Below are positions 4,012-27,492 of a stretch of 64,000 bases of DNA, piece by piece; the first letter of the stretch is position 1; the number at the start of each line of letters is the position of its first letter. The stretch comes from an uncultured Clostridia bacterium (GTDB taxonomy: Bacteria > Bacillota > Clostridia > Christensenellales > UBA1242): positions 69,764-133,763 of the forward strand of contig CALWEJ010000002.1 in the NCBI GenBank assembly GCA_944377165.1. Reading direction: 5' to 3'. A model generated the notes under the pieces. That model had not been told where the DNA came from, made no database searches, and worked only from the letters and a program-made list of their open reading frames with translations. Made by a program: the position numbers and the translations under genes.

Positions 4012-4427
4012 ACCTATCCTTTTACCTAAAACAAATTTTCTTTATAAAATTAATACATATTTATAATAAATATTAATTAAAGTTTTGTCAATTAAAATAT
4101 ATACAGAAATTCATATCGGATTTTTGTATAATAAATAGAAGTTAAATTTATGTTTTAAATTAGGTGTTTAAACTAAGAATAAAATCTAAGTAAAAATCGA
4201 AGAATAAATAAAATAGTTCATTTTTGATAAATAAAAATAAAAAATATGATAATAATATCATAAAGTTTTTAATTAATATTTTTTAATTGATATAAAAATC
4301 ATTAATTAAAAATAAAAAATTTATAAAAATATATCAAAATTAGTTGATTTTATTTTTTAATATTGTTAATATTATGACATAAATTGACACAAAATAATTT
4401 TGTTGTGTTGTATAAGGGGGAAATTTT

Positions 4428-4784
4428 ATGAGTACTTTATTGTCAACTTTATTGGCAGAAGCTGTCAATACACCTGAATGGTTAAATACATTAACTAATG
4501 CTATTACAAATATTATTAATCCTATATTGATTTTAGTGGCTACAGCAGGTGTTATTTATGCTATCGTAGTAGGTGTTAAATTTGTTAAGGCTGATGAGAA
4601 AAACGAACGTGACGAAGCAAAACAAAAGTTAATTTCAGTTATCGTTGGTATAGTTGTCACAGCTATATTGATAGTTGTATTCTATTGGTTAGCGAGCGCA
4701 ATTAAAAGAGGAGACCTTGACTTTAAACAATGGTGGGGTGTAAACAACGGAGCTGTCACAATGGCAAAAGTTTTAGTTGCTTAA
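4428..4784 (+). CDS. small two-TM membrane protein, VirB2/TrbC pilin-like topology
   Basis: 118 aa with two hydrophobic helices separated by the charged loop KFVKADEKNERDEAKQKL. RBS GGGGGA upstream. Lies in the T4SS module. Family resemblance is from memory only. Confidence 0.5.
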   Translation: MSTLLSTLLAEAVNTPEWLNTLTNAITNIINPILILVATAGVIYAIVVGVKFVKADEKNERDEAKQKLISVIVGIVVTAILIVVFYWLASAIKRGDLDFKQWWGVNNGAVTMAKVLVA

Positions 4785-4801
4785 TTGTATTTATTATAAA
4801 A

Positions 4802-4826
4802 AGCGGAGAAATCCCGCTTTTTATTT
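4802..4826 (+). terminator. rho-independent terminator
   Basis: AGCGG (4802-4806) / CCGCT (4814-4818) followed by TTTTTATTTTT. Confidence 0.7.
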
Positions 4827-5257
4827 TTATTTAATACTTAATTTAATACTTTTTTAACTTATAAAATTTTGATTAAAGTAAATTAATACATTAAAAACAC
4901 ATTAATTATTTAAATTATTTAATTTTGAATAAAAATAATCCTTTCATATAAATAGATTTTAGATATATTAGATATATAAGACAATTAATAAAATTTTATT
5001 TAACTATGATTTATAAAAATATAAATAATTATAGAAATCATAAATTATATTTACTTAATTTTTTATTTTAACCTATTTCATATAGTTTGACGGTCTTCTA
5101 TTATATAATAATTTTGGTATTTTTTATAATAATAATTTTTATTGTTTATTAAGTTTACATTATGATAAAAGAATTAATAGCAATTAATGATTTATTTATC
5201 TTATAAAATAATTGTAATTTTATGCCGAATTTGATATAATAATTTTAAGGAGATTCT

Positions 5258-6736: not shown

Positions 6737-6740
6737 ATTA

Positions 6741-6767
6741 AGTGCGGTAATTTATCGCACTTTTTTA
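6741..6767 (+). terminator. rho-independent terminator
   Basis: GTGCG (6742-6746) / CGCAC (6756-6760) followed by TTTTTT. Confidence 0.7.
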
Positions 6768-7051
6768 TTGTGAAATATATAAATTGCTAATTTATTAAAA
6801 TTTAACAATAAATTTTTAATTGTTTATTTTATAAATTTAAATTATTTGATTATTTTTTTATATAAAAATTATATAAACTATTTTTCTTATTTTTATTTAT
6901 TTTTAATGATGTATTATTATGTTTGTTTTTTAAAAAAATACTTAAATAAAATCAGTTATTGAATTGACTTACTTTAATTCTTCAAATTAAAAAATATTGT
7001 AAATTTTCTTTTATAAATAATGGTTTATTTATAATTTTTATTGTCTTTTTA

Positions 7052-7080
7052 TTGATTAATTTGTCGCAATAGTATATAAT
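7052..7080 (+). promoter_or_regulatory. candidate promoter for the 751-aa membrane protein gene
   Basis: TTGATT at 7052-7057, 17-nt spacer, TATAAT at 7075-7080. RBS AAGGAG lies ahead of the ATG at 7127. Confidence 0.5.
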
Positions 7081-7126
7081 ATATTTAAATAATATTAAAA
7101 CTATGGTTGCATAAGAAGGAGAAATT

Positions 7127-9382
7127 ATGGTTGAAGGACTTTTAGAAACTTTAGGTTCGTTAATATATCCGTTGTTTAGTATAATTTTTTTACTAGTAGA
7201 TTTATTGCAAGAATTATTTGCAATATTTGCCGGTACAAGCCTTCCGAATTTAAATTCAATTAATGCAAATATTAGTAATGAAAATACAGGAGAGTATAAC
7301 GAAACTGGGCTGGTGTTCTATCTATTAAATACGTCCGTTGTACGTAATTTGCTTGTATCAATATCTTTCTTAGCATTATTCCTTCTTATAATATTCACTA
7401 CAATGGCATTTATTAAGAACGTTTATGCTGCACAACCAAAGTCGTGGAAAGTCATTGCTGGAGATGCGATAAAGGGCTTAGCTAACTTTATATTCTTGCC
7501 AGTATGTTGTTTGTTAGGTATTTGGTTAGGTAATATTTTATTAAATGCTATCGATGGAGCGACTAGGCTTAGTGATTCTACAAACCTTAGTAGGCAATTA
7601 TTTGTTGTGTCCGCATATGATGCGAATCGGGTCCGAAATGGCGATTGGGGAGATACTATTGATATAGACGAATATAATCTAATAGCTACTATATGTGAAA
7701 ATAATAGCATCGCAATTAAAGAATTTAGCAATGACCCTAACGGAGACGGCGATGTGGAATATTATGCAGATATTATTGATCAATGCTTTTCTAAAATGAC
7801 TCAAAATGTGACGAGTTGGTCAGTTGTAAATAGATATTATAACCTTATGGGCATTAACTACATAATTTTAGGTGTAGGTGGTGTATCGATACTTTACTCT
7901 ATGTTCTATATAACATTTGGTATGGTTAAACGTATGTTTATGCTTTTATTCTTGTTTGTAATTAGTCCAGCATTATGTTCATTGTATCCACTAGATAACG
8001 GTAGTGCTGCAGGGAAATGGAAAAACAATTTCATTAGCAATACAATTAGTGCGTATGGAGCTATCGCAGGTATGAACTTATTCTTTAGCATTTCTCCTTT
8101 GATACAAGAAATTGATTTGACAACATCATTCGGCGGATTTAATGTAATAACTCAAGTAGCAGGAATTACAACCTTATTGTTATCTGTCGCAGGATTGTAT
8201 GTCGTAAAAGACTTCATTTCATTAGTTAACGGCTATATTGGTGGAGGAAACGCATTAGACGAAGGTAAAGGCTTGTGGGGTTCTACAAAAGGTGGAATTA
8301 AAGATAAATTAACTAAAGCTAGAGATAAGGTCAGTAAGAAAGTTAATGGAGCTTTTCAATCATATAATAAACGAAGAGGGCAGGAAAGATTTTTTGCTGA
8401 TCAGGTTAAAAGTGGAGCAATGACCCAAGCTGAAGCTGATGCAGAATTAAAGCGACAAAGAGAGAAAGCTACCAAAGATGCTTTCAAAGAAACTATAAAG
8501 AAATGGACGGGCATTGACACTAAAGGAATATCTGATGCCTCAGATGAAGGCTATCAGCGAGCAGGATCTGAATTTGCTAAACAAGCACATAAACGTCAAC
8601 AAAAGCAAGCACTAGAAAATATTAAAAATGAGATGCCCAAGATTGTTGAACAAAGGGCTCAGGTTCTATCCGATAGACGAGATAAAAAAATTACTAATGA
8701 AGAAGAGAAAAAGCAATTAGATGCAATTAATAAAAATCTAGAAAGATTGGTAGGCAAGGCGGAAGATGCTGGGACTAAAGAAGCTATTTTGTCCGTAGCA
8801 GGATATAATCCTGAAAGTTATAAAAAATACAAAGACGCGAAAAAAGAAGTTGATGATACTATTAATGATGTGAATAAAAAGGCGGCGGAAGTTGCATCGA
8901 TATTACAAACGTATAGGGGAGATACTAAATTCGAAGGATTATTGCGAAGTGGCGGATTGCATTCAGCTAAAGAAATAGAGAGAGCATCTTCTGATGCTGA
9001 GAGACAGGCTATGAACGAACGAAACCAACAATTAATAAGAGTTCGTGCATTGAATGATAGTATAGAGCAAATGAAAAAAGGATTTGAGGGTAAAGTCCAA
9101 AAATTTACAGAAACAGGATCAAAGGTGGATGGTAGAGATAAGGATAGGCAATATCTTGGACAAGAAATGGTTTCTTATATTTCGAAATTGTCTGAATCAC
9201 TTAAGTCAACTTCAACTATCGCTGCTGCTAACAGTGCTATTGATAAATTAAAAATTAATTTAGAATCATCTAAAACAATGGATAGGTCAATAACTGAAAA
9301 ATTAGCAAGGACTGTTGAATCAAAAATGGACGACATATTAGAAGCTGTTAAACAAAGAGAAAAGGCAAGCAATAAAAAATAA
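7127..9382 (+). CDS. polytopic membrane protein with long coiled-coil tail, VirB6/TcpH-like channel candidate
   Basis: At least 6 hydrophobic helices in the first ~370 aa, then a ~380-aa Lys/Glu/Ala-rich tail. Position immediately upstream of the VirB4-like gene. No motif-level proof. Confidence 0.5.
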   Translation: MVEGLLETLGSLIYPLFSIIFLLVDLLQELFAIFAGTSLPNLNSINANISNENTGEYNETGLVFYLLNTSVVRNLLVSISFLALFLLIIFTTMAFIKNVYAAQPKSWKVIAGDAIKGLANFIFLPVCCLLGIWLGNILLNAIDGATRLSDSTNLSRQLFVVSAYDANRVRNGDWGDTIDIDEYNLIATICENNSIAIKEFSNDPNGDGDVEYYADIIDQCFSKMTQNVTSWSVVNRYYNLMGINYIILGVGGVSILYSMFYITFGMVKRMFMLLFLFVISPALCSLYPLDNGSAAGKWKNNFISNTISAYGAIAGMNLFFSISPLIQEIDLTTSFGGFNVITQVAGITTLLLSVAGLYVVKDFISLVNGYIGGGNALDEGKGLWGSTKGGIKDKLTKARDKVSKKVNGAFQSYNKRRGQERFFADQVKSGAMTQAEADAELKRQREKATKDAFKETIKKWTGIDTKGISDASDEGYQRAGSEFAKQAHKRQQKQALENIKNEMPKIVEQRAQVLSDRRDKKITNEEEKKQLDAINKNLERLVGKAEDAGTKEAILSVAGYNPESYKKYKDAKKEVDDTINDVNKKAAEVASILQTYRGDTKFEGLLRSGGLHSAKEIERASSDAERQAMNERNQQLIRVRALNDSIEQMKKGFEGKVQKFTETGSKVDGRDKDRQYLGQEMVSYISKLSESLKSTSTIAAANSAIDKLKINLESSKTMDRSITEKLARTVESKMDDILEAVKQREKASNKK

Positions 9383-9452
9383 TGCCACATAATTAAAGTT
9401 GATAAAAAGTAATTTGTTGGAATTTTATTTAAACTAATTAAGAAGGGGTAAA

Positions 9453-12200
9453 ATGATTAGATATATTCCGGGTAAAACTAGGGTCAAAACTGAATTTTTA
9501 AAAAATATTTCGTTGGGAGATATCATACTTGCGATAATCTGCCTTATATTTGCTATCGTGATTGTTGCTAGTAATTTATTTAAAATTGATGGTGTAGATT
9601 ATCGTTGGTATGCCCTACTCGGTTGGTTGGCCATTGCTATTGCTATGTACATACCAATTGACGAAGGATTGAGATTGTATAGTTCAATAGGACTTATTAT
9701 TAGATTCGCAGCCTTCCCTAAGAAATATATTAAGCCTTCTTCAGCAAAAAAATCTAGAGCTAAGTCTATTGAAAAAATTACACCTTTCTTTAAAATTGAT
9801 GTTGGTAAATTCATAGATTTTGGTGATTATTCAGGAATGGTGATTGAAATCCACCCTGTTGCGTTAGACCTTATGCAAGAATCTGCGCAAGATTCATTAA
9901 TTATGACTTTTAGTAAAGCGCTTAAACGTATATCGCAATATCAACGTGCGAGTTTAATTAAAAATGTTAAACCAATGAGATTTGATATTTTCTTGCATAA
10001 TGACGATAAGAAATTCGAACTTTTAAATGAACTATACGAAGCGGGACAATATTCTGAAGCAGAAATGGAAGCACGTTCAATTATATTCCGTGAGCGTGTT
10101 GATAGATTAAATAATGCTATTCGCGCAGAACCTGTATTACAAGACCACTATTATTTCGTGCTTTATGGTAATGACAGAGAAAACTTAGAAGAAACGTGTA
10201 TAGGTATTTGTAATGATTTAGCTACAGGACAATACACGATATCAGCCGACATATTAACTGAAAATGATTTAGTTAGTTTCTTAAAATCAAATTATCAGTC
10301 AGTGTATAGCGAAAGAGAGATTGAAGGTTTGGCTCCAAGTCAGTTTAATAACTGGATTATGCCAAATCAAGTAAACTTTAAAGTAGCACGTGTTGAAATC
10401 GATAAAAAGAATTATAAACAAATGGTGATTTCAGATTATCCGCTTGAAGTGGGTAATGGTTGGGCTTACACAATATTTGGACAACCGGGCACGCGTGTTA
10501 TAATGAACATTATGCCGGTTGATAAGGAAAAGGGCGAACGAACAATTGACCGTGCCGTAATGGAAAAAGAGTCTAAACTTGATAGAACGTTCCGTTCAAG
10601 TGAGATTATAGAAAAAGAAGCTGATATTGATTCGCTTCAAACATTGTTAAAAGACTTAAAAACTAACAATGAACAGTTATATGATATTTCTATTCATATG
10701 CGAGTTGAAGAAGAACGTCGTAAAGAAATTAGAAATGTATTAAAGCAGTATGGTTTTAAATATTCAGATTTGTTCGGTAGACAAGTAGATGCATTTATTT
10801 CGTCTAGCGTAAACAGAATTGATACCTTAAAACCATTCTATCGTAGTATGCCGTCAACTACTATTGCTGCATCGTTCCCTATGGTAGATTCAATAATGCA
10901 AGACCCAGCTGGCTTTGCTATAGGACAATCGTCCGCTAGTGGTTATCCTGTGTTTATCGATTTCTTCGTGCGTGATGCACGTAAAGGCCGTATTAACTCA
11001 AATATGATGGTTATAGGTAAGTCTGGTTCAGGTAAATCGTATGCTACTAAAACCATTCTAACAAACCTTGCCGCCGACCGAACAAAAATGTTCATTCTTG
11101 ACCCAGAGCAAGAATACGATGTTATGACTAGAAATCTTGGCGGAAAGGTTATTGACGTAGGTACTAACACATCTGGTATTCTAAATCCGTTCCATATAAT
11201 GGCATCACTTGAAGACTTAGACGCGGCTAATACTTCGGACAATATTGATAATGAAGCTATTGACGATATTGTGAAAAAGGGTAGTAATAAAACATTCTTT
11301 ACTCACTTACAGTTCTTAGAACAATTCTTCCGCGCAATTTTGGAAGGAATTAGTTCGGACGCGTTCGAAACATTGAATACTCTTGTCGTTGAATTGTATA
11401 ACAAAAAGGGTATTAATGAAAAGACGAATATCGGTAAATTAAAAGCGGAAGATTATCCAATATTTGACGACTTATTCGCACTGATTAAATCGAAAATTAA
11501 GACGGTTAAAGACCAGTTCTATCGAAACAACCTTTTGATACTTGAAACATATATTCAGAAGTTCGCTACTGGTGGACGAAATTCGGATTTGTGGAATGGA
11601 CCAACGTCAATTCTTACAGACGAAAACTTGATTACATTTAACTTCCAGACATTATTCGCTAGTAAAAATAATAAGCTTGCTAATGCACAAATGCTACTTG
11701 TATTCAAATATTTGAACAACGAAATTATTAATAATAAACGTTTTAACGAGCAATATTATCAACGTACTGGTAAAGATATTAAGCGACAAGTCGTAATTGC
11801 CGTCGATGAAGCACATATGTTTATTGACCCAGATAGTCCGGTCGCTTTGAACTTTATGGCGGAAATGGCTAAACGTATTCGTAAATATCAAGGTATGCAG
11901 ATAGTTATTACGCAAAATATTAAAGACTTTTTAGGTACACCTGAAATTCAACGTAGGTCAGCAGCAATTATTAATGCTTGTCAATACAGTTTAATTCTTC
12001 AGTTAGCGCCTAATGATATGGCTGACTTGTTGGAACTTTATAAATCAGCCGGCGGTATTAATGCGCGAGAGCAAGAAGGTATCGTCACTGCGCCACGAGG
12101 TAGAGCATTCTTTATTACAGGTCCAATGGATAGGTCATTCATTGATATTGTTGCATTTCCTAATGTTCAATACATTATGGGTGAAGGTCCTAAAAGATAG
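9453..12200 (+). CDS. virB4: T4SS ATPase, VirB4/TraE/TcpF family with N-terminal VirB3-like TM segment
   Basis: Two N-terminal TM helices, Walker A MVIGKSGSGKSY, Walker B VVIAVDEAHMF, 915 aa, RBS AGAAGGGG. Confidence 0.8.
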   Translation: MIRYIPGKTRVKTEFLKNISLGDIILAIICLIFAIVIVASNLFKIDGVDYRWYALLGWLAIAIAMYIPIDEGLRLYSSIGLIIRFAAFPKKYIKPSSAKKSRAKSIEKITPFFKIDVGKFIDFGDYSGMVIEIHPVALDLMQESAQDSLIMTFSKALKRISQYQRASLIKNVKPMRFDIFLHNDDKKFELLNELYEAGQYSEAEMEARSIIFRERVDRLNNAIRAEPVLQDHYYFVLYGNDRENLEETCIGICNDLATGQYTISADILTENDLVSFLKSNYQSVYSEREIEGLAPSQFNNWIMPNQVNFKVARVEIDKKNYKQMVISDYPLEVGNGWAYTIFGQPGTRVIMNIMPVDKEKGERTIDRAVMEKESKLDRTFRSSEIIEKEADIDSLQTLLKDLKTNNEQLYDISIHMRVEEERRKEIRNVLKQYGFKYSDLFGRQVDAFISSSVNRIDTLKPFYRSMPSTTIAASFPMVDSIMQDPAGFAIGQSSASGYPVFIDFFVRDARKGRINSNMMVIGKSGSGKSYATKTILTNLAADRTKMFILDPEQEYDVMTRNLGGKVIDVGTNTSGILNPFHIMASLEDLDAANTSDNIDNEAIDDIVKKGSNKTFFTHLQFLEQFFRAILEGISSDAFETLNTLVVELYNKKGINEKTNIGKLKAEDYPIFDDLFALIKSKIKTVKDQFYRNNLLILETYIQKFATGGRNSDLWNGPTSILTDENLITFNFQTLFASKNNKLANAQMLLVFKYLNNEIINNKRFNEQYYQRTGKDIKRQVVIAVDEAHMFIDPDSPVALNFMAEMAKRIRKYQGMQIVITQNIKDFLGTPEIQRRSAAIINACQYSLILQLAPNDMADLLELYKSAGGINAREQEGIVTAPRGRAFFITGPMDRSFIDIVAFPNVQYIMGEGPKR

Positions 12201-13396: not shown

Positions 13397-14308
13397 TTAT
13401 TTATTGCTTTTGAATTGGCTTAATAATAGTAAATAACTTTCTTGCCCGCTTTTGCATAAATTAATTAAAATATTGCTAGAACTTTTCCAATCTTTAAAAC
13501 ACTTTTTGTATTCATTGTCGAATTTGTGGTCGATGTAAAAAGGAACTATTCCATTTTTCAAACATTCTTTTAGGGTAATAAGGCGACCGATTGCATCATT
13601 ATAATTATCAAATGGCGATATCTTTACAAAATAATATAAGAATTTAATAATCGCACCTAAATTTTTTGTCTTTAAATTATTGTAGCAATTAAGTAATGAA
13701 ACCAATTTGTTTTCATTGTCATTAATCTTGCTGTTTTCAGTTTCAGGGCTGAATTGATTTGATTTTTTATAAGAAAAAAATTCTTTTATTACACTATTAT
13801 CTGAAGAGTCCGTACCTTCATTTAATATGAAATATAACGTTTTAATAAAATCTTCATCTAACTTTTTGTTTGCATTGTCTATGACGTAGTCTATACATTT
13901 AAAGTGATTTTGTATTTTAACTAGCGTGTTAATAGCGGTTGATATTGGTAGGGTGGCAATATTGCTTGTTTCGAATATGTGCGCAATTTGATTTTCAGTT
14001 AAGCCATAGTTTTTCACATCAAGCGCGGAATACGTAAATTTTACTTGAGTTGCTTCGTACAATTTTCCTTCTATACATTCGTCTTTTTCTTTTTTAAGTG
14101 TTTGCAATAGTCCACAGTCAAAAGATATCTCATTTGTTTTGCATTTAAGGAAATTGCATATTTTATGTATCTTTTCTGGAGAAATATCATCACTTAATAG
14201 AATGCTTGACAAAGTCTTTGCGTCTATGCCTACCGAATTGATTAATTCAGTTATTTTACAACTTCGTTTAGTTAAAATCAAATTTAACTTTGCCATATTA
14301 ATCCGCAT
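13397..14308 (-). CDS. HTH plus Fic-like protein with degenerate active-site motif
   Basis: N-terminal XRE-type HTH (ITELINSVGIDAKTLSSIL). C-terminal SPFDNYNDAIGR stands in place of the Fic signature HPFx(D/E)GNGRxxR, so the catalytic His is absent. RBS AGGAGA. Confidence 0.5.
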   Translation of the reverse strand: MRINMAKLNLILTKRSCKITELINSVGIDAKTLSSILLSDDISPEKIHKICNFLKCKTNEISFDCGLLQTLKKEKDECIEGKLYEATQVKFTYSALDVKNYGLTENQIAHIFETSNIATLPISTAINTLVKIQNHFKCIDYVIDNANKKLDEDFIKTLYFILNEGTDSSDNSVIKEFFSYKKSNQFSPETENSKINDNENKLVSLLNCYNNLKTKNLGAIIKFLYYFVKISPFDNYNDAIGRLITLKECLKNGIVPFYIDHKFDNEYKKCFKDWKSSSNILINLCKSGQESYLLLLSQFKSNK

Positions 14309-14625: not shown

Positions 14626-14669
14626 TGGTGACCCCGCCGGGACTCGAACCCAGAACAATTCCTTAGGAG
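14626..14669 (-). pseudogene. 3' half of a disrupted host tRNA-Arg(CCT), left junction of the island
   Basis: Minus strand reads CTCCTAAG-GAAT-TGTT-CTGGG-TTCGAGT-CCCGG-CGGGGTC-ACCA. This is an anticodon loop, T arm, acceptor 3' strand and CCA with no 5' half adjacent. Confidence 0.85.
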
Positions 14670-14893: not shown

Positions 14894-14921
14894 TTCAATT
14901 TTACAATTTTTGTGTTATAAT
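14894..14921 (+). promoter_or_regulatory. candidate promoter for the helicase gene
   Basis: TTCAAT at 14894-14899, 16-nt spacer, extended -10 TGtTATAAT (TG at 14913-14914, TATAAT at 14916-14921). RBS GGAGAAA lies before the ATG at 14945. Confidence 0.5.
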
Positions 14922-14944
14922 GTAAATATATTTGGAGAAATTGC

Positions 14945-17900
14945 ATGCTTAAAAGTATAGAAAATTTTGTAGAAAGTAAAGATAATGGTTTAATGCTTTT
15001 AGATCTACCAACTGGATTTGGTAAAACCGCTAGTGTTATTAATTTCATAAAGAACTTTATTAATAATGACTCACCAGTTGTTAAACGGGTTTATTTTGTC
15101 ACGAACCTAAAAAGCAATTTGCCAGAGAAACAACTTAAAGAATTGTTTGGAAACGCTTACAATGATTATTGCTTATATCTAAAACCATATTGGCAATCGG
15201 TTACCGAAAAGTGGAAATATATTCAAATCAATAATTCTGAAATTCTTAATTCAGATGAATATAAAAATTTAAATCTAGATATTGAAACTCTTTATAAATT
15301 TAGAGCCGATAAAGAAAAATTCAAAATTGAAAAAAACTTTGATCACGAATATAAACAGACAAAAAGATTGATTAAATCTTATGAACAAAAAATTGAAAAA
15401 GATACTGAAGTAAAATTTAGACAATTTATTAAAAAGAATTATCTATACAACAAATCAACAAATGACAAAGATAAGTTTCTTAACAGCAATAATTGGATAA
15501 TGGAATTATATCCAGCATGCAAACTTAAAGATGAAAAAATAAAAGTTGTCTTATCGAGCACTAAAAAGTTTTTTAGTCCAATAGATACTTTTTCGCGTAT
15601 GCCTTTTTACATTTATAACAACAATGCAATGATGGATAATACAGTAACATTTATTGATGAATTTGATACTACAAAGGAAACTTTACTTACCCAAATTATA
15701 GATGATGGTTTAAAGTTCGATATTGATATTTTTGCATTGTTTTTAAATATCTACTATTCGCTTACAAATTTGAAATTCCCAAATACGTTAATGAAGCTTA
15801 GTGATTATAGAAAAGAGAAAATCTCAAACGAAGAATGGGAAGACATTGAAACATTAAAAAAACAACTAGAATCACACTTTGTTCAAGTTTATAATGATTA
15901 TAATTTTGAATTGTTTACAAAAAGCAAAGGATTTGAAGAAAAAAAGGCTTTCATTTTTGATGATGGGAAAACTCTGAATATTTTTAATGATAATTCAAAG
16001 CGAGTACTCCATACTAAATTAGATAAAGATGAAAATAATATATCTTTATATGCTGAAACAAAAAGCTGTAAAGAGCAAAATGATAAGAGATTTGATAATG
16101 TATTGAGAAAGGTTAAGTTTGCTATTGATGATTTTGTAAATAAAACAGCATATATTTCAAAAAACTACACAGATTATAAAAATCAATCCTTAAAAGGTTA
16201 TAAAACAAAATACTCTTTTGAAGAGTCGGTATTGACCATTTTATCCGCCTTTAACATAGCAAATGAGTTTAAACAATACCTACTAGATCGTATAATAGAT
16301 AAGGATGCGAATTTAAAGTTGGATTTGCCACTAGATTCAGAATTTGAATTTATGCGTAAAGGGTTTGAGTTTACAGAAATTGAAGACGACCATAACCATG
16401 ATTTACAAACAAAATCTCACGCTTTCAAATTTGATACTACACCAGAAGATATAATAACCAAATTGAGCGTCAAGTCTCGCGTTGTGGGAATTTCCGCCAC
16501 TGCATCAATTGACACAGTTATTGGGAATTATGATATAGATTATCTTAAAAAAATTTTAAAAAATGATTTTTACATAATTCCAATAAATGATTATTCTAGG
16601 TTGGAAAATCAATTTTTAGATAGTCAAAAAATATACAATGATTACAAGATTGAAATAAACACTATTCCTATTGATGATTTTAATTTCTTCTCAGACAAAG
16701 AAAAATGCATAGAAATTATAAATTCATTATTTAATGATGAAAACAAAAAGTTTTATTTGGAACACCTTGAAAAGAATATTAGCAACTATCATTTCTTTAT
16801 AATCTGCAAACTTATGAAACTTTTTAAAGAAGTTGCTGAAAGTAAAAATCTGTATTCATTTTTAGCGTTTCTAAATTCATTCCCAACAACAAAAGATAAA
16901 ACTAAAAGCGAGCATTTTTTAGATAAAGATATTTTAGATAGAGCCATACAAGACTTGATATCTCAAAATAATTATGATAATCCCCCAATGTTGCACATTG
17001 TAAAAAGTAATAATTATGATGAAGAATTTATTAAGATTAATGGAGAATTAGCCGAAGGTAAAAAGGTTTTTGTTTTAAGTACATATAAAACCATTGGAAA
17101 TGGTAAAAATATTCAATATAACATCCCAAATCTAGAACAAATAGAACAAAATGTAATATTGTTTCCAGAAAACAAACCTCAAAAAGACTTTGATGCTATT
17201 TACCTCTCTACTCCTACGAATTTAATTCAAATGTTATCCTACAATTCTGAAAATAAAGTAAATGAGTTATGTAAATACCTTTTTCAGCAAGAATATTTGT
17301 ATCAGAAAAAATACATATATCATAGCGAAAGAAAGACAAACATTGAAGCTGGATTTAGAAAAACATTTTATGGTGATAAAATATTTTCTTCATATAAACG
17401 AAATCAAGATATATTATTACATACGGCACAATTGGTAATTCAAGCCGTTGGAAGAATCTGTAGATGTAGAAATAAAAATAAAACAATAAACATCTTTTAT
17501 GATCAAGAAGTTTTAAATAGATTAAGTATCATAAAAGATGAGTTATTAAGCGAAAGATTCATATTTAACAAAGAATTTCAACAATTGTTAGAGCAACCAA
17601 TAAAAAATGATGATTTAGAATTTGTAAAATATACAAACAAAAACAAAAAAGCTTTTGTAACTATTACAAAAATGTCTAAAGCTGTTAGGAAATCGGAACA
17701 AGCAGTTTTTGACTGGCAAGATCTACGAGATTTTGTTTTAAAGAATCCAACGTCAAACTATATACCAGATAAGTATAAAGAGTTATATTTTGAATTTGAT
17801 ATTGCTTATTCTGGGTATGCGTTTAAACTTAATAGTAAGCACGAATTTACAAAAATCTCATTTAACAATTCTTATGAAACAGATCAAGTTTCTGCAGAAG

Positions 17901-18385
17901 AATGTGAGTTGATTAGATTAATGAATATTCCAGAACTCAGAAAATATTTTGAAGAAAATGGTTATGCAACTGAATTTAAAAGTGGCAAATTCATTATGTC
18001 AGAATCGTTATATAAACAAGTTTACAAAGGAGCTTTGGGAGAAGTTATCGGTAAATATATTATTGATAAAGCTCTCGGTTACGATTTGGAAGAACTTGAT
18101 CATAATGGACAATATGAGGCTTTTGATTTCAAAATAAAAAACTTTTACTTTGATTTTAAACACTGGGACTACTTTATAAAAGATAATGATGGCTATTGTA
18201 ATTTTATAGAATGGAAGCTTAGTACAGTGCAAGGAGCAAAAGCTGTTGTTGCAAATATTCTTCAAAGAGGCAACCACAAAATAAATACATCTGTAGACGA
18301 TAAAATAATTCAAGTTCCTTATTTGATAAATGAAGAAAATGAAATAGATTATAAATTCATAGAAAACTTAATAGACATCATTTAA
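14945..18385 (+). CDS. large SF2 (DEAD/DEAH-like) helicase with C-terminal nuclease-like region
   Basis: Motif I LLDLPTGFGKTA, motif II TFIDEFD, motif III-like GISATAS, motif VI QAVGRICR. The C-terminal ~150 aa carry GEVIGKYI...EAFDFKI...FDFKHW, a possible PD-(D/E)xK signature. Confidence 0.7.
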   Translation: MLKSIENFVESKDNGLMLLDLPTGFGKTASVINFIKNFINNDSPVVKRVYFVTNLKSNLPEKQLKELFGNAYNDYCLYLKPYWQSVTEKWKYIQINNSEILNSDEYKNLNLDIETLYKFRADKEKFKIEKNFDHEYKQTKRLIKSYEQKIEKDTEVKFRQFIKKNYLYNKSTNDKDKFLNSNNWIMELYPACKLKDEKIKVVLSSTKKFFSPIDTFSRMPFYIYNNNAMMDNTVTFIDEFDTTKETLLTQIIDDGLKFDIDIFALFLNIYYSLTNLKFPNTLMKLSDYRKEKISNEEWEDIETLKKQLESHFVQVYNDYNFELFTKSKGFEEKKAFIFDDGKTLNIFNDNSKRVLHTKLDKDENNISLYAETKSCKEQNDKRFDNVLRKVKFAIDDFVNKTAYISKNYTDYKNQSLKGYKTKYSFEESVLTILSAFNIANEFKQYLLDRIIDKDANLKLDLPLDSEFEFMRKGFEFTEIEDDHNHDLQTKSHAFKFDTTPEDIITKLSVKSRVVGISATASIDTVIGNYDIDYLKKILKNDFYIIPINDYSRLENQFLDSQKIYNDYKIEINTIPIDDFNFFSDKEKCIEIINSLFNDENKKFYLEHLEKNISNYHFFIICKLMKLFKEVAESKNLYSFLAFLNSFPTTKDKTKSEHFLDKDILDRAIQDLISQNNYDNPPMLHIVKSNNYDEEFIKINGELAEGKKVFVLSTYKTIGNGKNIQYNIPNLEQIEQNVILFPENKPQKDFDAIYLSTPTNLIQMLSYNSENKVNELCKYLFQQEYLYQKKYIYHSERKTNIEAGFRKTFYGDKIFSSYKRNQDILLHTAQLVIQAVGRICRCRNKNKTINIFYDQEVLNRLSIIKDELLSERFIFNKEFQQLLEQPIKNDDLEFVKYTNKNKKAFVTITKMSKAVRKSEQAVFDWQDLRDFVLKNPTSNYIPDKYKELYFEFDIAYSGYAFKLNSKHEFTKISFNNSYETDQVSAEECELIRLMNIPELRKYFEENGYATEFKSGKFIMSESLYKQVYKGALGEVIGKYIIDKALGYDLEELDHNGQYEAFDFKIKNFYFDFKHWDYFIKDNDGYCNFIEWKLSTVQGAKAVVANILQRGNHKINTSVDDKIIQVPYLINEENEIDYKFIENLIDII

Positions 18386-18617
18386 CAAACAATTCCTTAC
18401 AAACTTTGTAGGTAATCTCAATCACATGGTCAACTTCAAGGTTATGAAGTTGACCTTTTTCTATGTCTAAATTAAAGTATTCTTTCCATTTGTCTTTTGA
18501 AAACCCTTTAACAAAAGCATCTTCAAGTTCACAAATTTTGTTTAATTGCAATTGCATTTCTGCAGACATTTTCTCAGTTTCGAGAATATCTCTGACTAGT
18601 TGTAAAACGTGGTTCAA
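18378..18617 (-). CDS. small hypothetical protein, paralog of 18944-19177
   Basis: TTG start preceded by GGAGGTG (8-nt spacing). Shares FV.G(L/F)(S/T)...(T)(Y/H)K(V/I)CK(E/D)(L/V)F with the other ~78-aa protein. Overlaps the upstream gene by 44 nt. Confidence 0.5.
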   Translation of the reverse strand: MNHVLQLVRDILETEKMSAEMQLQLNKICELEDAFVKGFSKDKWKEYFNLDIEKGQLHNLEVDHVIEITYKVCKELFVK

Positions 18618-18939
18618 CTTTCACACCTCCATTAGATTTTATTGAGCAATACTTGGGATAATTTTCTCCATCGCTATATACCAATACCATTACATCACAT
18701 TGAATACAGCAATACATAAGAACATGAAAAATACCATTTTCATCAATAAACATGTCTTCTTGATACTTAGCAATATTGGGCTCATCTTCTAGTAACCTTT
18801 CACGAAAAGGTATAAACTCTCGCCTTGAAAGATAAACAACCCGCTCAACCACATATTCAGCTTCAAAGCCTTCGCCTTTATCAATTCTATTTCTAAGCAA
18901 TCTGGCATTAGAAACATTACATATAAATCGTGTCTTCAT
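18574..18939 (-). CDS. hypothetical 121-aa protein
   Basis: RBS GAGGT ahead of the ATG. Cys pair MYCCIQCD. No family recognised. Confidence 0.5.
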   Translation of the reverse strand: MKTRFICNVSNARLLRNRIDKGEGFEAEYVVERVVYLSRREFIPFRERLLEDEPNIAKYQEDMFIDENGIFHVLMYCCIQCDVMVLVYSDGENYPKYCSIKSNGGVKVEPRFTTSQRYSRN

Positions 18940-18943
18940 ATCA

Positions 18944-19177
18944 TTACCTCAACTTAAACACATCTTTGCAGATTTTGTGAGTATGCTTGATATATTCTTC
19001 TGTTTGCATTTTAATTATATCTTCGACTTCTACCCAAAACTCTAAAAACTTAATACATTGCTCATCAGTTAAACCAGAAACAAAATTCATCTTCTTTTCA
19101 GCAACTTTTTCTTTTTGAGTTTTAAGTTCTCCAGAACTTATAAAAGACTTATTTACTAAATTAATTAGTTGTTTCAT
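18944..19177 (-). CDS. small hypothetical protein, paralog of 18378-18617
   Basis: ATG at 19177 is preceded by AAGGAGG. The track start at 19183 is a GTG inside the spacer. 77 aa, predicted helical. Confidence 0.5.
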   Translation of the reverse strand: MKQLINLVNKSFISSGELKTQKEKVAEKKMNFVSGLTDEQCIKFLEFWVEVEDIIKMQTEEYIKHTHKICKDVFKLR

Positions 19178-19238
19178 AAACACCTCCTTATAGGTGTTTG
19201 TCTTTTACCGTACTTTCAACTCTTTTGCAAGTCAATTC

Positions 19239-19488: not shown

Positions 19489-20613
19489 ATGAAATTAGAA
19501 ATAAAACAACAAGACATAATACCTTATGTTTATTTTGTTAGTAGCATGGCTCAGCAATCAAAATCTGGAATGTTTGGATCTTTAAGTTCAAAAAGCGATC
19601 TTGTAGGTGGAATTTTTGATAGATGGATAAATATTATTCCAGAAAGTATAGTGTTTAATCAATATTTCTTACCTGAAGCAGTAAAAAAATTAAATATGAA
19701 TAAAAAAGTAAGAGTTTTTTCTGATTTCTATATGTATGATCCAAAAGTTGTAGGTATTGCACCAGATGTAATTGGTTTGCAAATTGAAAACAAAATTGTT
19801 CCTTTTGTTAAATACGATGACACAAAAGAAGATACAAAGTTTTGGGTTCCTCAAACAGAATGTCCTCAAATAGAAGTTAAGTCTTTTTTTGGTAAAAAGT
19901 ATATGGTTAGTTTAAGAGATCAACATTATGGAGATAAGTTCCTAGTAATGGTTGGAGCAAACATTGATGTTGACTACTTGCTTTCTTTCTTTGATAAAAA
20001 TATATTTACTGAAAATGAAATAAGTAAATTGACGATGCCTAATGACTTTATTGAGTCTGATAATAAAGGCTTAATTTCTAAAACAAAGCAAGTTGAATTT
20101 AACAGATGTAGTTTGGGTAGTCTGGAGCTACTTTGTGTCACAAAAGCTTCTCAATTTAGAAATATGGCACTAAAACTTAATGCAGGAGAAATTCCAAGAT
20201 ATTTCGTTGATGTAACGCAAAGAAAAGTTAAAGTAAAAGAAAGTAATTACAGTCCAAACTCTTTATTGAGTGATTATTGTGATAAACAAGAAAGTGGACT
20301 ATACAGATTTAATGACAACTGGTATTCGTTATTTACAACGCCTAAGGAAAAAACATTAGACATTGAAATTGGAGGTCCTAATGCATTAAGAGTTATAAAA
20401 AAGACCACTAATTCTATAACCGTATTAGCCGAAAGCGATACCTTCGTTAATGACTACAACCTACAAAAAGGAAATCAATATAATATAAACTTTGGAACTT
20501 TTGGTTCAATTGCAGGTGAAGAATATTTCATTAATAAAGGATTATTAAAGTATTTGCCTAATATGGAAAGCAATCTAATCGAATCATTAAGTCAGATTAT
20601 AAGGAAAAACTAA
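19489..20613 (+). CDS. putative type II restriction endonuclease (or REase subunit) 1
   Basis: RBS AGGAGA. PD-(D/E)xK-like APDVIGLQ...PQIEVKSFF. First gene of a tightly packed R-R-M-M operon. No family recognised. Confidence 0.4.
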   Translation: MKLEIKQQDIIPYVYFVSSMAQQSKSGMFGSLSSKSDLVGGIFDRWINIIPESIVFNQYFLPEAVKKLNMNKKVRVFSDFYMYDPKVVGIAPDVIGLQIENKIVPFVKYDDTKEDTKFWVPQTECPQIEVKSFFGKKYMVSLRDQHYGDKFLVMVGANIDVDYLLSFFDKNIFTENEISKLTMPNDFIESDNKGLISKTKQVEFNRCSLGSLELLCVTKASQFRNMALKLNAGEIPRYFVDVTQRKVKVKESNYSPNSLLSDYCDKQESGLYRFNDNWYSLFTTPKEKTLDIEIGGPNALRVIKKTTNSITVLAESDTFVNDYNLQKGNQYNINFGTFGSIAGEEYFINKGLLKYLPNMESNLIESLSQIIRKN

Positions 20614-22408: not shown

Positions 22409-23353
22409 ATGAAAGTTGCAAGTATGTTTGCGGGAATTGGTGGTATATGTTTAGGCTTTAAACAGGCTGGATTTGATATTGTTTGGGCAAATGAAGTTGA
22501 TAATGATGCATGCAAAACATATAGAAAAAATTTAGGCGATCACTATCTAATTGAAGACGATATTAGAAATATTGATCCTAAAACATTGCCAGATTTTGAT
22601 GTTCTAACCGCAGGTTTTCCTTGTCAACCATTCTCTATTGCTGGAAAGCAAAAAGGATTTAAAGATAAACGAGGAAATCTATTCTTTGAAATTGCTAAAA
22701 TAATAGATGTAAAAAGACCTAAGATTGTCTTTTTAGAAAATGTTAGAAATCTTGAAGAGCACGACAATGGTAAAACTTTTTTGGTTATATACAATACATT
22801 AGCACAGTTTGGTTACGGTGTAAGATATAAAGTCTTAAATGCTAAAGACTATGGAGTGCCACAAAACAGAGAAAGAATATTTATTATTGGTTTTTTAGAT
22901 GATTGGCAATGCAATAATTTCAAATATCCTGAGGCTATAAAATCGCCAGAGTCTATTTTTGACATAATAAGAACTTCGGACAAAAAACATCCATTTTATT
23001 ATTATGACGATAAAAGTCCATATTTTCAAATGCTAAGTAAATCTATTATTGATAAAAGCAAAATTTATAAATTAACTGACTATGGAGTAAGAAAAAGCAA
23101 AACTAGTATATGCCCCACTTTAACAGCAAATATGGGGACATTTCCAGATAGAGTCCCTATAATAAAAGATGATTTCGGCATAAGAAAACTAATGCCATCA
23201 GAATGTCTTTTACTTCAAGGCTTTCCAGACAATTTCCAGTTTCAGAAAAACATTTCAATAGAAAGTGCGTACAAGCAAGTTGGAAATTCTGTATGTGTAC
23301 CATTAATAAAATTTTTAGCAGAACAATTAAAAGTTATTATGGAGATTAAATAG
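22409..23353 (+). CDS. DNA (cytosine-5)-methyltransferase 2
   Basis: The ATG abuts the upstream stop (TAGATG). Motif I FAGIGG, IV GFPCQPFSIAG, VI ENVRNL, VIII QNRERIFIIGF, X GNSVCVPL. Confidence 0.9.
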   Translation: MKVASMFAGIGGICLGFKQAGFDIVWANEVDNDACKTYRKNLGDHYLIEDDIRNIDPKTLPDFDVLTAGFPCQPFSIAGKQKGFKDKRGNLFFEIAKIIDVKRPKIVFLENVRNLEEHDNGKTFLVIYNTLAQFGYGVRYKVLNAKDYGVPQNRERIFIIGFLDDWQCNNFKYPEAIKSPESIFDIIRTSDKKHPFYYYDDKSPYFQMLSKSIIDKSKIYKLTDYGVRKSKTSICPTLTANMGTFPDRVPIIKDDFGIRKLMPSECLLLQGFPDNFQFQKNISIESAYKQVGNSVCVPLIKFLAEQLKVIMEIK

Positions 23354-23686
23354 ATGAAAGCATTAATTATTAAAAAGCCTTGGATTGATTACATTTTAGA
23401 GGGTAAAAAAACATGGGAAATTCGTGGAAGTAATACTAATATCAGAGGTCAAATAGAGCTTATACAAAGCGGAAGTGGTTTGGTTGTAGGTTCTTGCGAG
23501 ATTATAGATTGTAAAGAATTGACTTTAGATGATTATAAAAACAATACTGATAAACACAACATTAAAAACGTTGAGGCTCTTCCCTACAAAAAGACATATG
23601 CTTGGGTTATGTTGAACGCAAAGAAATATGAAACAGCTAGAAAATATAAACATCCTAACGGTGCGATAATATGGGTAAATTTATAA
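23354..23686 (+). CDS. ASCH (PUA-like) domain protein
   Basis: 110 aa. IKKPWIDYILEGKKTWEIRG followed by beta-rich segments is typical of ASCH domains. The start abuts the MTase-2 stop (TAGATG), suggesting translational coupling. Confidence 0.55.
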   Translation: MKALIIKKPWIDYILEGKKTWEIRGSNTNIRGQIELIQSGSGLVVGSCEIIDCKELTLDDYKNNTDKHNIKNVEALPYKKTYAWVMLNAKKYETARKYKHPNGAIIWVNL

Positions 23687-26100: not shown

Positions 26101-27492
26101 ATGGCATGTATACAGAAAAAGAAATTATTAGATGGAACAATATCTTATAGAGTTCAAGTAAAGGCTAAAAATCAAAGAACAGGAAAATTTGAGGCAAAAG
26201 CAATTACTTGGAAGAAACCGCTAGAACTTACAGAAACTCAAGCAAAGAAAGAACTACAAAGGATTGCACTAGAACTTGAAGAAAGATTTAATAAACAACT
26301 CAACGGGCTATTAGCAGTCGACAACGATATAACCTTTATAGACTATGCCGAAAGATGGCTAGAAAAGATTAAGAATACACGTTCACTTAACTACTATGTT
26401 AAGGGTCGAGATTGCTTGAAGAAATTCTATAAATACTTCGGAAACATAAAACTCAATCAAATAACACCAGTAATGGTGCAAGGTTTCCTAGATGATATGA
26501 TGATGAAAAGATACGAAAAGAAATCCGCTAGACTTACTGGTGACTTAAATCAATACTTAAAATCTCACTGCATCAAGCAAGTAGATGCTTTGAAAAAGAT
26601 TGGAATATCTAAATCAATACTAGCATCGGCAAATGCAGGATATTGCATACGAATAGAAAATGCAGAAAAGATATGTAATGCACTAGGCTTAAAGTATGAA
26701 GATTACTTTACAACAGAGGTGCAAAGTCGCGCCTATGCAAAAGAAACAATAATGAAACTAAAACGAACACTAGCAACAATACTCGCAGATGCAAAGCGAC
26801 AAAGATTGGTTGAGCACAACTTCGCATCTCGTGACTATATAGCACCAATACAAGGTTATAAAAAAGAAGTTAAGATACTTAACGATAAAGAAGCTAAGAT
26901 ATTAGCCAGCTACTTACACACAGAACCAAACCCTAGATGGAAGATTGCATTACTCACAGTATTATTTATGGGATTAAGGCGTGGTGAACTTGCAGGGCTA
27001 GAATGGAAAGATATTGACTACGAAAACAAAACAATGACCATAGCAAGATCGGTTCAAGATATTATAGGGTTTGGACTTATAACCAAAGAACCCAAAACTG
27101 AAAACTCAAAAAGAACAATCTCAATGCCAGACAAACTGATTGACTATTTGAAAGAATACGAAATATGGTGGCTAAATCAAAAGAAATATCTTGGAGATAG
27201 ACTTGGAAATACCGATAGATTATTCTGCACAGAAGATGGCACAGATATCTCACCAGGATTATTCAGAGTATGGCTACAAAAAACACTGGCAAAAGTCGAC
27301 CTGCCAAAAGTAACTCTCCACTCCCTAAGACACACAAACATAACCTTACAATTAGTAGCAGGAGTAGATATGAAAACAGTATCTGCCCGTGCAGGACACT
27401 CAAAAGCATCAACCACAAGCGACTTCTACAGTCACTTCATAAAGAACTCAGATATCCACGCAAGTGAAATACTAAATAAAATATTTGAATAA
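26101..27492 (+). CDS. int: tyrosine site-specific recombinase (phage-integrase family, Tn916-like size)
   Basis: 463 aa. Box I GLRRGELAGLEW, HSLRHT (H-x-x-R), GHSKASTTSDFYSH (catalytic Tyr). N-terminal arm-binding-type domain. RBS AAGGAG. Confidence 0.9.
   Translation: MACIQKKKLLDGTISYRVQVKAKNQRTGKFEAKAITWKKPLELTETQAKKELQRIALELEERFNKQLNGLLAVDNDITFIDYAERWLEKIKNTRSLNYYVKGRDCLKKFYKYFGNIKLNQITPVMVQGFLDDMMMKRYEKKSARLTGDLNQYLKSHCIKQVDALKKIGISKSILASANAGYCIRIENAEKICNALGLKYEDYFTTEVQSRAYAKETIMKLKRTLATILADAKRQRLVEHNFASRDYIAPIQGYKKEVKILNDKEAKILASYLHTEPNPRWKIALLTVLFMGLRRGELAGLEWKDIDYENKTMTIARSVQDIIGFGLITKEPKTENSKRTISMPDKLIDYLKEYEIWWLNQKKYLGDRLGNTDRLFCTEDGTDISPGLFRVWLQKTLAKVDLPKVTLHSLRHTNITLQLVAGVDMKTVSARAGHSKASTTSDFYSHFIKNSDIHASEILNKIFE

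What the first reader, a model, noticed from the sequence alone, without database searches (positions are those of the whole stretch)
14945..18385. Orphan 1146-aa SF2 helicase with a nuclease-like tail at the island's left edge
Helicase motifs I (PTGFGKT), II (DEFD), III (SAT) and VI (QAVGRICR) are spread over ~850 aa with large insertions. The last ~150 aa carry GEVIG...FDFKI...FDFKHW, compatible with a PD-(D/E)xK nuclease. This resembles a type III Res or nuclease-helicase immunity protein. However, there is no adjacent N6-adenine Mod subunit; the only MTases in the island are two C5 enzymes 3 kb away behind an opposing three-gene operon. It could be a stand-alone helicase-nuclease defence gene, or a partner of the downstream small genes.
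Basis: partly seen in the sequence, partly recalled or inferred. Interest (0 to 1): 0.6.

Follow-up and report, generated by a model that had tools for sequence, protein, structure and literature searches.

The report
DdmD helicase-nuclease without its Argonaute partner
This 1146-residue gene is a full-length relative of DdmD, the DNA-unwinding and DNA-cutting enzyme that an Argonaute guide protein (DdmE) normally steers onto plasmids. It belongs to a distinct branch from gut Firmicutes that never has that guide, so it probably works as a one-gene defence on a mobile island.

Summary
It is not a type III Res protein. It is a DdmD-family enzyme: an XPD/DinG-like SF2 helicase fused to a C-terminal PD-(D/E)xK nuclease (PADLOC DdmD E=4e-31; PDB DdmD E=6e-46; Foldseek top 20 hits all DdmD). 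K27 and K1072 align with V. cholerae K55 and K1102, whose mutation kills DdmDE.

The defining partner, the Argonaute-like DdmE, is missing. None was found in the window, in the 1.02-Mb genome (96% complete), or in the 25 related loci of this branch. In contrast, 72 more distant DdmD genes all have DdmE directly downstream. In a tree, the window's gene sits in a clade of 23 rows (support 100) with no DdmE-linked member.

The clade keeps all catalytic residues, is under strong purifying selection (dN/dS 0.04-0.10), and is sporadic: 1 of 36 congeners, 0 of 400 genomes sampled from the phylum. It lies among many different defence genes with no conserved neighbour.

Best reading: a stand-alone DdmD-like defence nuclease-helicase on an 18-kb tRNA-Arg island. 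Function and trigger are inferred, not shown. This scan reached the same conclusion earlier on other DNA (e1-4784150). I found no paper describing a DdmE-less clade.

The parts
14661..14668 (.). Left core repeat (CTTAGGAG) of the ~18-kb integrative island. The same 8-mer recurs at 32556-32563, and the 3' half of a tRNA lies at 14626-14668 on the minus strand. This is context for the gene, not part of it.
   Evidence: Sequence read; intact tRNA-Arg(CCT) at 32354-32430; integrase at 26101-27492.
14913..14921 (+). Candidate extended -10 promoter element, TGTTATAAT, 24 nt upstream of the start codon.
   Evidence: Read directly. The consensus scanner did not list it. Inferred, with no expression data.
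14934..14937 (+). Shine-Dalgarno-like GGAG, 7 nt before the ATG.
   Evidence: Read.
14945..18385 (+). Gene for the 1146-aa DdmD-family helicase-nuclease (P0001), a member of the DdmE-less clade.
15008..15028 (+). Helicase motif I / Walker A, PTGFGKT (residues 22-28). K27 aligns with V. cholerae DdmD K55.
   Evidence: K55A abolishes DdmDE activity (10.1101/2024.05.10.593530).
15656..15667 (+). Helicase motif II, DEFD (residues 238-241).
   Evidence: At least 90% conserved in both the solo and the DdmE-linked groups.
16493..16501 (+). Helicase motif III, SAT (residues 517-519).
17441..17464 (+). Helicase motif VI, QAVGRICR (residues 833-840).
   Evidence: ApsA has QAVGRVER (PMC11096173).
18017..18166 (+). 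PD-(D/E)xK nuclease core (residues 1025-1074): E1033, D1061, D1070-F-K1072. These align with V. cholerae E1059, D1085, D1100 and K1102.
   Evidence: Alignment, residues counted by hand. Invariant. K1102A abolishes nuclease activity and plasmid elimination.
18428..18455 (+). Terminator-like hairpin (11-bp stem followed by a T-run), 43 nt after the stop codon and inside the 3' end of the convergent small ORF.

Best explanation
The gene encodes a DdmD-family enzyme: an XPD/DinG-like SF2 helicase motor (5'->3' on ssDNA in characterised DdmD) carrying INS and Arch insertions, fused to a C-terminal PD-(D/E)xK nuclease. It belongs to a monophyletic branch from gut Clostridia, Christensenellales and Anaeroplasmataceae that has lost, or never had, the Argonaute-like guide protein DdmE. 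It rides as cargo on an 18-kb tRNA-Arg integrative island beside a type II R-M operon and an Avs4-like sensor.

Proposed mechanism (inferred). The protein acts as a one-gene defence against incoming DNA. It loads on single-stranded or forked DNA, such as conjugative or rolling-circle intermediates, replication forks of plasmids or phages, or ends left by restriction. It then translocates using ATP and cuts the strand with its nuclease. Target choice would rest on DNA structure rather than on a guide.

Shown here: family membership, the fold, intact catalytic residues, absence of DdmE locally and genome-wide, clade-wide solo state, purifying selection, and a mobile, defence-island context. Inferred: the defence function, the trigger, the polarity, and any autoinhibited dimer.
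For: Family and fold:
- PADLOC DdmD E=3.7e-31 over residues 187-1074.
- phmmer against PDB: L. casei DdmD E=5.7e-46, V. cholerae DdmD about 1e-32.
- AF2 model pLDDT 84, pTM 0.81. Foldseek top 20 hits are all DdmD, E=1e-40 to 2e-48, full length; the next best are DinG/XPD at about 1e-9.
- End-to-end colinear BLASTP alignment with a DdmD that has its own DdmE.

Catalysis:
- K27, D238/E239, Q833/R837/R840, E1033, D1061 and D1070/K1072 are invariant in 21 homologues and at least 90% conserved in both the solo and DdmE-linked groups.
- K27 and K1072 align with K55 and K1102, which are essential in V. cholerae.

No partner:
- The own genome has no match to the DdmE model, to Pfam Piwi, or to a Firmicute DdmE.
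- No DdmE-like ORF in 25 solo-clade loci with up to +-10 kb of flank where the contig allows.
- A DdmE profile hits 1 of 25 solo-clade genomes, and there it lies on another contig next to its own DdmD.
- 72 other DdmD genes have DdmE immediately downstream.
- Tree: a 23-row clade with 19 solo, 4 unknown and 0 DdmE-linked rows, SH-aLRT 100; support 100/100 in the smaller careful tree.
- No neighbour family recurs in more than 3 of 24 loci.

Selection and context:
- dN/dS 0.04-0.10.
- Present in 1 of 36 congeners, 0 of 24 other families of the order, and 0 of 400 genomes sampled from the phylum.
- Neighbours elsewhere include Gabija, BREX, type I and type IV restriction, PDC-S06, PDC-S41, Tmn, Mokosh and PrrC.

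Plausibility of solo activity: V. cholerae DdmD alone degrades ssDNA, unwinds DNA with overhangs or forks, and nicks plasmids in vitro.
Against: Characterised DdmD is an autoinhibited dimer that needs DdmE for efficient action on dsDNA plasmids, and the solo clade shows no extra domain or clade-specific indel that could replace DdmE. A non-homologous or unlinked partner cannot be excluded by sequence searches; other Argonaute-like families escape sequence methods (notes). Most genomes compared are MAGs, so genome-wide absence of DdmE is weaker evidence than the local absence. The trees are unrooted, so loss and never-gained cannot be told apart.
Confidence: 0.6

Rival explanations
1. It is the effector half of a two-part system whose sensor is encoded elsewhere or is unrecognisable: a hidden Argonaute-like or other recruiter, or a host factor. 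On its own the protein would stay autoinhibited.
For: Canonical DdmD needs DdmE for dsDNA targeting. The solo clade keeps the same architecture, with no added sensor domain. One solo-clade genome (G068) also carries a complete DdmDE elsewhere. Earlier notes of this scan describe Argonaute-like families invisible to sequence searches.
Against: The 1.02-Mb own genome has no Piwi or DdmE match. 24 of 25 solo-clade genomes lack DdmE. No neighbour family recurs in more than 3 of 24 loci. The nearest unknown gene, the 374-aa ORF, is not Argonaute-like and belongs to a widespread family of its own. Genes that move alone between unrelated islands usually work alone.
Confidence: 0.2
2. It is a decaying remnant of a DdmDE operon that lost DdmE and is no longer useful.
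For: The partner is absent. The gene is rare and patchy.
Against: Full-length open frames occur in 25 loci spanning 40-97% identity. All catalytic residues are invariant. dN/dS is 0.04-0.10 in both halves. The solo state is shared by a whole deep clade. The gene has its own SD and candidate promoter and a terminator-like hairpin.
Confidence: 0.04
3. It serves the mobile element rather than the host. It could process island or ICE DNA, or exclude competing plasmids and ICEs for the island's benefit (entry exclusion by degrading incoming ssDNA).
For: In this window it lies at the very edge of an integrative island and next to a T4SS module. Two island relatives carry different DdmD-like alleles beside the same three-gene cassette.
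Against: Other clade members sit in chromosomal defence clusters next to housekeeping genes with no mobility genes nearby, for example L002/L014 beside Gabija and the rnf operon. Excluding rival elements is in practice the same activity as anti-plasmid defence, so this is more a shading of the main explanation than an alternative.
Confidence: 0.12
4. It is a type III restriction Res subunit or another R-M helicase working with the nearby C5 methyltransferases.
For: A weak Pfam ResIII match at residues 3-80. An R-M operon lies 1.1 kb downstream.
Against: The ResIII score is below the cut-off and covers only the Walker A region. There is no Mod gene. The fold and full-length homology are DdmD and XPD/DinG. 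The R-M operon is absent from most homologous loci.
Confidence: 0.02

Closest known systems
DdmD of the DdmDE plasmid-defence system (Vibrio cholerae VPI-2; Lactobacillus casei; PDB 9ix4, 9ixm, 8u0u, 9ezx, 9bf1)
   Same: Same length (1146 against about 1190 aa). Colinear alignment over nearly the whole protein. XPD/DinG-like SF2 helicase with INS and Arch insertions plus a C-terminal PD-(D/E)xK nuclease. Equivalents of the essential K55 and K1102 are conserved. Carried on mobile or defence islands.
   Different: Only 18-26% identical. It belongs to a separate, well-supported clade in which no member has the pAgo partner DdmE, whereas 72 of 72 informative genes outside the two solo groups have it directly downstream. 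Six positions are fixed differently between the groups: K721/Q, I723/L, D822/S, C841/T, Q1025/N, Y1057/F. Guide-directed targeting therefore cannot apply as described.
ApsA of the ApsAB anti-plasmid system (E. coli ST38; PMC11096173)
   Same: [quoted passage not shown] Matching motifs: GFGKS, DELH, SAT, QAVGRVER and a D...DxK nuclease.
   Different: ApsA is longer (its nuclease K is residue 1435) and is paired with the Argonaute-like ApsB. No ApsB-size conserved neighbour exists here. ApsA itself was not compared directly.
DinG / XPD helicases, including CRISPR type IV CasDinG
   Same: The helicase core fold; these are the next best structural matches after DdmD (E about 1e-9 to 1e-4).
   Different: They have no fused PD-(D/E)xK nuclease of this kind, and structural similarity is much lower (TM normalised to the query 0.21-0.31).
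Single-gene helicase-nuclease defences Hna and Nhi
   Same: Same concept: one polypeptide with a helicase and a nuclease that gives immunity without a partner (from my own knowledge of Sather et al. 2023 and Bari et al. 2022).
   Different: No detectable homology. The only PADLOC model matched at E<=0.01 is DdmD.

Membership tests
DdmD protein family | Full-length sequence homology to characterised DdmD | tested here: met
   PADLOC PDLC04130 E=3.7e-31, profile positions 225-1104 of 1190. phmmer against PDB: 9ix4_A E=5.7e-46 over residues 182-1132. 26% identity end to end with a DdmE-linked DdmD.
DdmD protein family | Fold: XPD/DinG-like SF2 helicase plus C-terminal PD-(D/E)xK nuclease | tested here: met
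   AF2 pLDDT 84. Foldseek top 20 hits are all DdmD chains, E=1e-40 to 2e-48, TM 0.51-0.59 over the full length.
DdmD protein family | Catalytic Walker A lysine and nuclease D-x-K lysine (V. cholerae K55 and K1102) | tested here: met
   K27 and K1072 align with them and are invariant in the clade.
DdmD protein family | Autoinhibited homodimer through the INS and Arch domains | not testable with these tools
   Only a monomer model could be made. No clade-specific indel in these regions.
DdmDE two-gene system | A long-C pAgo DdmE encoded directly downstream of ddmD | tested here: not met
   No DdmE or Piwi match in the window or the own genome. 0 of 25 clade loci have it, against 72 of 72 informative genes outside the two solo groups.
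DdmDE two-gene system | DNA-guided plasmid elimination | not testable with these tools
   Needs an experiment.
Type III R-M Res subunit | ResIII/helicase domain above the family threshold, plus an adjacent Mod methyltransferase | tested here: not met
   ResIII scores 18.8 bits against a cut-off of 22.5, and only on residues 3-80. No N6-adenine MTase nearby; only two C5 MTases in a separate operon.
ApsAB | ApsB Argonaute-like partner downstream of the helicase-nuclease | tested here: inconclusive
   No conserved large neighbour in 24 loci, but no ApsB model or sequence was available for a direct search.
Hna / Nhi single-gene helicase-nucleases | Sequence match to the family model | tested here: not met
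   The PADLOC scan at E<=0.01 returns only DdmD.

The most novel reading that the evidence does not exclude
A whole clade of DdmD enzymes has become independent of its Argonaute guide. It works as a self-sufficient immune effector that recognises invading DNA by structure (ssDNA entry intermediates, forks or free ends) rather than by sequence. This would be a natural case of an Argonaute/Cas3-style 'recruited shredder' turned into an autonomous sensor-effector, with the few clade-specific substitutions relieving or rewiring autoinhibition.
Probability: 0.45. Interest if true: 0.6.

Novelty: new variant of a known kind. Interest (0 to 1): 0.5.

Why it matters
DdmDE is the textbook case of a catalytically dead Argonaute recruiting a helicase-nuclease. 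All published work treats DdmD as an autoinhibited effector that depends on DdmE.

A deep, conserved, horizontally mobile clade of DdmD without any Argonaute raises a concrete, testable question: how is a dangerous processive nuclease aimed and kept off the host chromosome without a guide?

The answer would inform three things: how defence effectors become autonomous, how annotation pipelines should treat such genes (PADLOC and DefenseFinder would call them incomplete DdmDE and discard them), and which barriers to plasmid and ICE transfer operate in uncultured gut Firmicutes with 1-Mb genomes.

The gene is compact and single, so it is easy to test in laboratory strains.

Tried and rejected
- **Type III Res or R-M helicase reading.** Rejected. 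The ResIII match is sub-threshold and there is no Mod.
- **Downstream three small genes as partner.** Rejected. They are a mobile cassette of unknown function that is absent from most loci. Two of its genes are 90-95% identical in L025, next to a DdmD-like allele of only 40% identity and on its other side. Only the 121-aa protein hits a family, phrog_21303, of unknown function.
- **The 374-aa unknown ORF (19489-20613) as a hidden short Argonaute.** Rejected. It belongs to a widespread independent family with invariant D93...E129-x-K131. Its confident model (pLDDT 85) has no significant PDB match and no MID/PIWI hit.
- **Upstream HTH/PDC-S04 protein as partner.** It lies outside the island's left end and is not conserved next to homologues.
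- **Clade-specific insertions or deletions that might replace DdmE or remove the DdmE-binding bundle.** None of 6 or more residues found. Only three positions are conserved in DdmE-linked genes but free in the solo clade (630, 916, 965). Position 630 maps to V. cholerae F654, just past the published DdmE-contact bundle (603-633). This is too weak to interpret.
- **Phage origin.** Only 2 distant relatives in IMG/VR, and P0001 matches no PHROG.
- **Plasmid carriage.** Five distant hits only. The best, on a Nostoc plasmid, is a canonical DdmDE pair.
- **The original DdmDE paper (Jaskolska et al. 2022).** It is not in the searchable library.
Full report
**Observation**

The window holds one open frame at 14945-18385 on the plus strand. 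It is 1146 codons long with an ATG start.

Reading the upstream sequence directly, there is a TGTTATAAT extended -10-like element at 14913-14921 and a GGAG at 14934-14937, 7 nt before the ATG. A terminator-like hairpin lies at 18428-18455. The gene therefore looks like its own transcription unit.

**Setting**

The region to the left (1981-12200) encodes a VirD4-type coupling protein and a VirB4/TraG-like ATPase.

- At 14626-14668 the minus strand carries the 3' half of a tRNA.
- The 8-mer CTTAGGAG at 14661-14668 recurs at 32556-32563.
- An intact tRNA-Arg(CCT) lies at 32354-32430, and a tyrosine integrase at 26101-27492.

The island's cargo is:

- this gene;
- three small minus-strand ORFs;
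- an operon of a 374-aa unknown protein, a Bsp6I-type endonuclease, two C5 methyltransferases and an ASCH protein;
- a 1583-aa SMEK/AAA protein that an earlier follow-up called Avs4-like.

**What the protein is**

- Pfam gives only a sub-threshold ResIII match on residues 3-80 (18.8 bits, cut-off 22.5). NCBIfam and PHROGs give nothing.
- PADLOC gives one hit, DdmD (PDLC04130), E=3.7e-31, covering residues 187-1074 against profile positions 225-1104 of 1190.
- phmmer against PDB sequences finds L. casei DdmD (9ix4) at E=5.7e-46 over residues 182-1132, and V. cholerae DdmD (8u0u, 9bf1, 9ezx, 9khv) at about 1e-32.
- An AlphaFold2 model built on 21 homologues is confident (mean pLDDT 84.2, pTM 0.81).
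- Its 20 best Foldseek matches in the PDB are all DdmD chains (E=8e-40 to 2e-48, TM 0.51-0.59, full length). There is then a gap of 30 orders of magnitude to DinG, XPD and CasDinG.

Counting through the alignment, K27 aligns with V. cholerae K55. E1033, D1061, D1070 and K1072 align with E1059, D1085, D1100 and K1102. K55A and K1102A abolish plasmid elimination and in vitro degradation (Loeff et al., 10.1101/2024.05.10.593530).

The 'type III Res' comparison is not. The motor is XPD/DinG-like, with INS and Arch insertions that explain the long inter-motif spacers.

**The missing partner**

DdmD is known only as half of DdmDE. DdmE, a catalytically dead long-C Argonaute, uses DNA guides to find plasmids and recruits DdmD, which otherwise rests as an autoinhibited dimer.

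No DdmE was found here:

- The PADLOC DdmE model, Pfam Piwi, a Firmicute DdmE sequence and a three-sequence DdmE profile all find nothing in the window's own genome (1.02 Mb, 12 contigs, 96% complete). The Piwi control did ring in three reference genomes.
- tblastn and phmmer with two DdmE proteins find nothing significant in the window or in any related locus of the clade.

**Is that a property of this locus or of a lineage?**

- The big protein database holds 406 homologues (E<=1e-3; the best 120 listed were 40-94% identical), from Clostridia, Christensenellales and Anaeroplasmataceae.
- The 1.84-billion-protein representative library holds 972 clusters at E<=1e-3 and 399 at E<=1e-30.
- I fetched 32 loci from species-representative genomes, 5 from assemblies, 80 metagenome loci seeded with the 28-39%-identity relatives, a Nostoc plasmid and a second locus of one genome.
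- I scanned all ORFs with a DdmE HMM iterated on the loci themselves.

Result: 72 DdmD genes have a DdmE-like ORF starting within a few bases of the DdmD stop. Another 27 have at least 2.2 kb of downstream sequence and no DdmE anywhere in the locus. Eight are on contigs too short to tell.

In a maximum-likelihood tree of 71 sequences (deduplicated at 90%), the window's gene falls in a clade of 23 rows (SH-aLRT 100). This clade holds 19 solo rows, 4 unknown rows and no DdmE-linked row. All 43 DdmE-linked rows lie outside it. A careful tree on 29 rows gives the same split at 100/100. A second, small solo pair (L034, L075) is nested among DdmE-linked genes.

Genome-wide, the DdmE profile hits both positive controls and only 1 of the 25 genomes carrying a DdmE-less DdmD gene that were searched. 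That genome is G068. There the DdmE lies on another contig directly after its own 1147-aa DdmD, which is 26% identical to the window protein. That genome therefore carries both kinds.

**No substitute partner**

- All-against-all clustering of ORFs of 70 aa or more in 30 loci finds no neighbour family shared beyond integrases (8 loci) and the three-gene cassette (4-5 loci, four of them close relatives of the window).
- For two genes of that cassette, the copies in L025 are 90-95% identical to the window's. There they lie upstream of a DdmD-like allele that is only 40% identical. The cassette is therefore island backbone or a separate mobile module, not a co-evolving partner.
- A PADLOC scan of 113 neighbours (+-3 genes in 24 loci) matches 250 different defence models. 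None occurs in more than 3 loci. They include type I and type IV restriction, PbeA, PDC-S06, PDC-S07, PrrC, Mokosh and BrxL.
- Individual loci show Gabija, BREX, Tmn, PDC-S41 and HKD-Snf2 next door.
- The 374-aa unknown ORF downstream belongs to a widespread family of its own with an invariant D...ExK. Its confident model has no significant PDB match and no Argonaute-like hit.

**Is the solo gene functional?**

- In 21 homologues of 40-82% identity, every catalytic residue is invariant.
- Across the solo and DdmE-linked groups, 83 positions are at least 90% conserved in both.
- dN/dS against four close homologues is 0.04-0.10 for both the helicase part and the C-terminal part.
- No clade-specific insertion or deletion of 6 or more residues exists.
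- Six positions are fixed differently between the groups: K721/Q, I723/L, D822/S, C841/T, Q1025/N and Y1057/F.
- The gene is accessory. It is in 1 of 36 congeners (a 42% allele), in 0 of 24 other families of the order, and in 0 of 400 genomes sampled across the phylum.
- It is essentially absent from viral contigs.

**Mechanism**

What follows from established knowledge of DdmD: ATP-driven 5'->3' translocation on ssDNA by the XPD-like motor, with the PD-(D/E)xK domain cutting the strand. DdmD alone degrades ssDNA, unwinds DNA with overhangs or forks, and weakly nicks plasmids. ssDNA or forked DNA opens the autoinhibited dimer.

My inference for the solo clade is that this basal, structure-triggered activity has become the working mode. 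The enzyme would load on ssDNA or forked intermediates of incoming or replicating foreign DNA without a guide. I give this 0.6.

The main rival, at 0.2, is an unlinked or unrecognisable recruiter. The others are a role serving the island itself (0.12), a decaying remnant (0.04) and an R-M helicase (0.02).

**Novelty**

The papers I could search describe DdmD and ApsA only with an Argonaute-like partner. [quoted passage not shown] I found no report of a DdmE-less clade.

Within this scan, a follow-up on another genome (e1-4784150) reached the same conclusion. I reached mine before reading it and tested it independently here.

I class this as a new variant of a known kind, of moderate interest.

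Noticed in passing
L110:6001-10623 (metagenome contig Ga0209906_100091): A single 1540-aa ORF matches the DdmD profile over residues 1-1121 and the C-terminal two-thirds of the DdmE profile (HMM positions 219-692) over residues 1063-1538. This looks like a natural DdmD-DdmE (MID-PIWI half) fusion, or an assembly or frameshift artefact.
   Followed up: partly
window 19489-20613 (+): This 374-aa protein heads the REase/MTase/MTase/ASCH operon. It belongs to a widespread unannotated family (300 hits, including Erysipelotrichaceae and Saccharibacteria) with invariant D93...E129-x-K131. The AF2 model is confident (pLDDT 85) but has no significant PDB fold match. It is probably an uncharacterised type II-like endonuclease with a novel beta-rich C-terminal domain.
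   Followed up: partly
window 18378-19183 (-); L025:9070-9875: A three-gene cassette (79, 121 and 79 aa) of unknown function. Two of its genes are 90-95% identical in another island (L025), while the third is only 37% identical. The cassette flanks different DdmD-like alleles on opposite sides. The 121-aa protein matches phrog_21303 (unknown function). The first ORF overlaps the DdmD-like stop codon by 8 nt, convergently.
   Followed up: partly
window 13397-14308 (-): A 303-aa protein with an N-terminal Cro/C1 HTH, whose remainder matches the PADLOC candidate single-gene system PDC-S04 (E=2.4e-54) and phrog_11900. It lies just outside the island's left end, next to a SpoVT/AbrB-type regulator.
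   Followed up: no
L042 (G068:C17:30000-42000) and L015: One Christensenella-like genome carries both a canonical DdmDE pair (1147 aa + 586 aa, overlapping genes) and a solo-clade DdmD-like gene on another contig. The two kinds are therefore not mutually exclusive.
   Followed up: partly
L034 and L075: A second, small pair of DdmD genes without DdmE within the fetched flanks, nested among DdmE-linked genes in the tree. This may be an independent loss of the partner.
   Followed up: no
L041 (Nostoc sp. UHCC 0926 plasmid pn2, 44282-59611): A canonical DdmDE pair annotated only as hypothetical proteins. It sits beside a C5 methyltransferase plus ASCH-domain gene pair, the same MTase-ASCH pairing seen in the window's island (22409-23686).
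   Followed up: no
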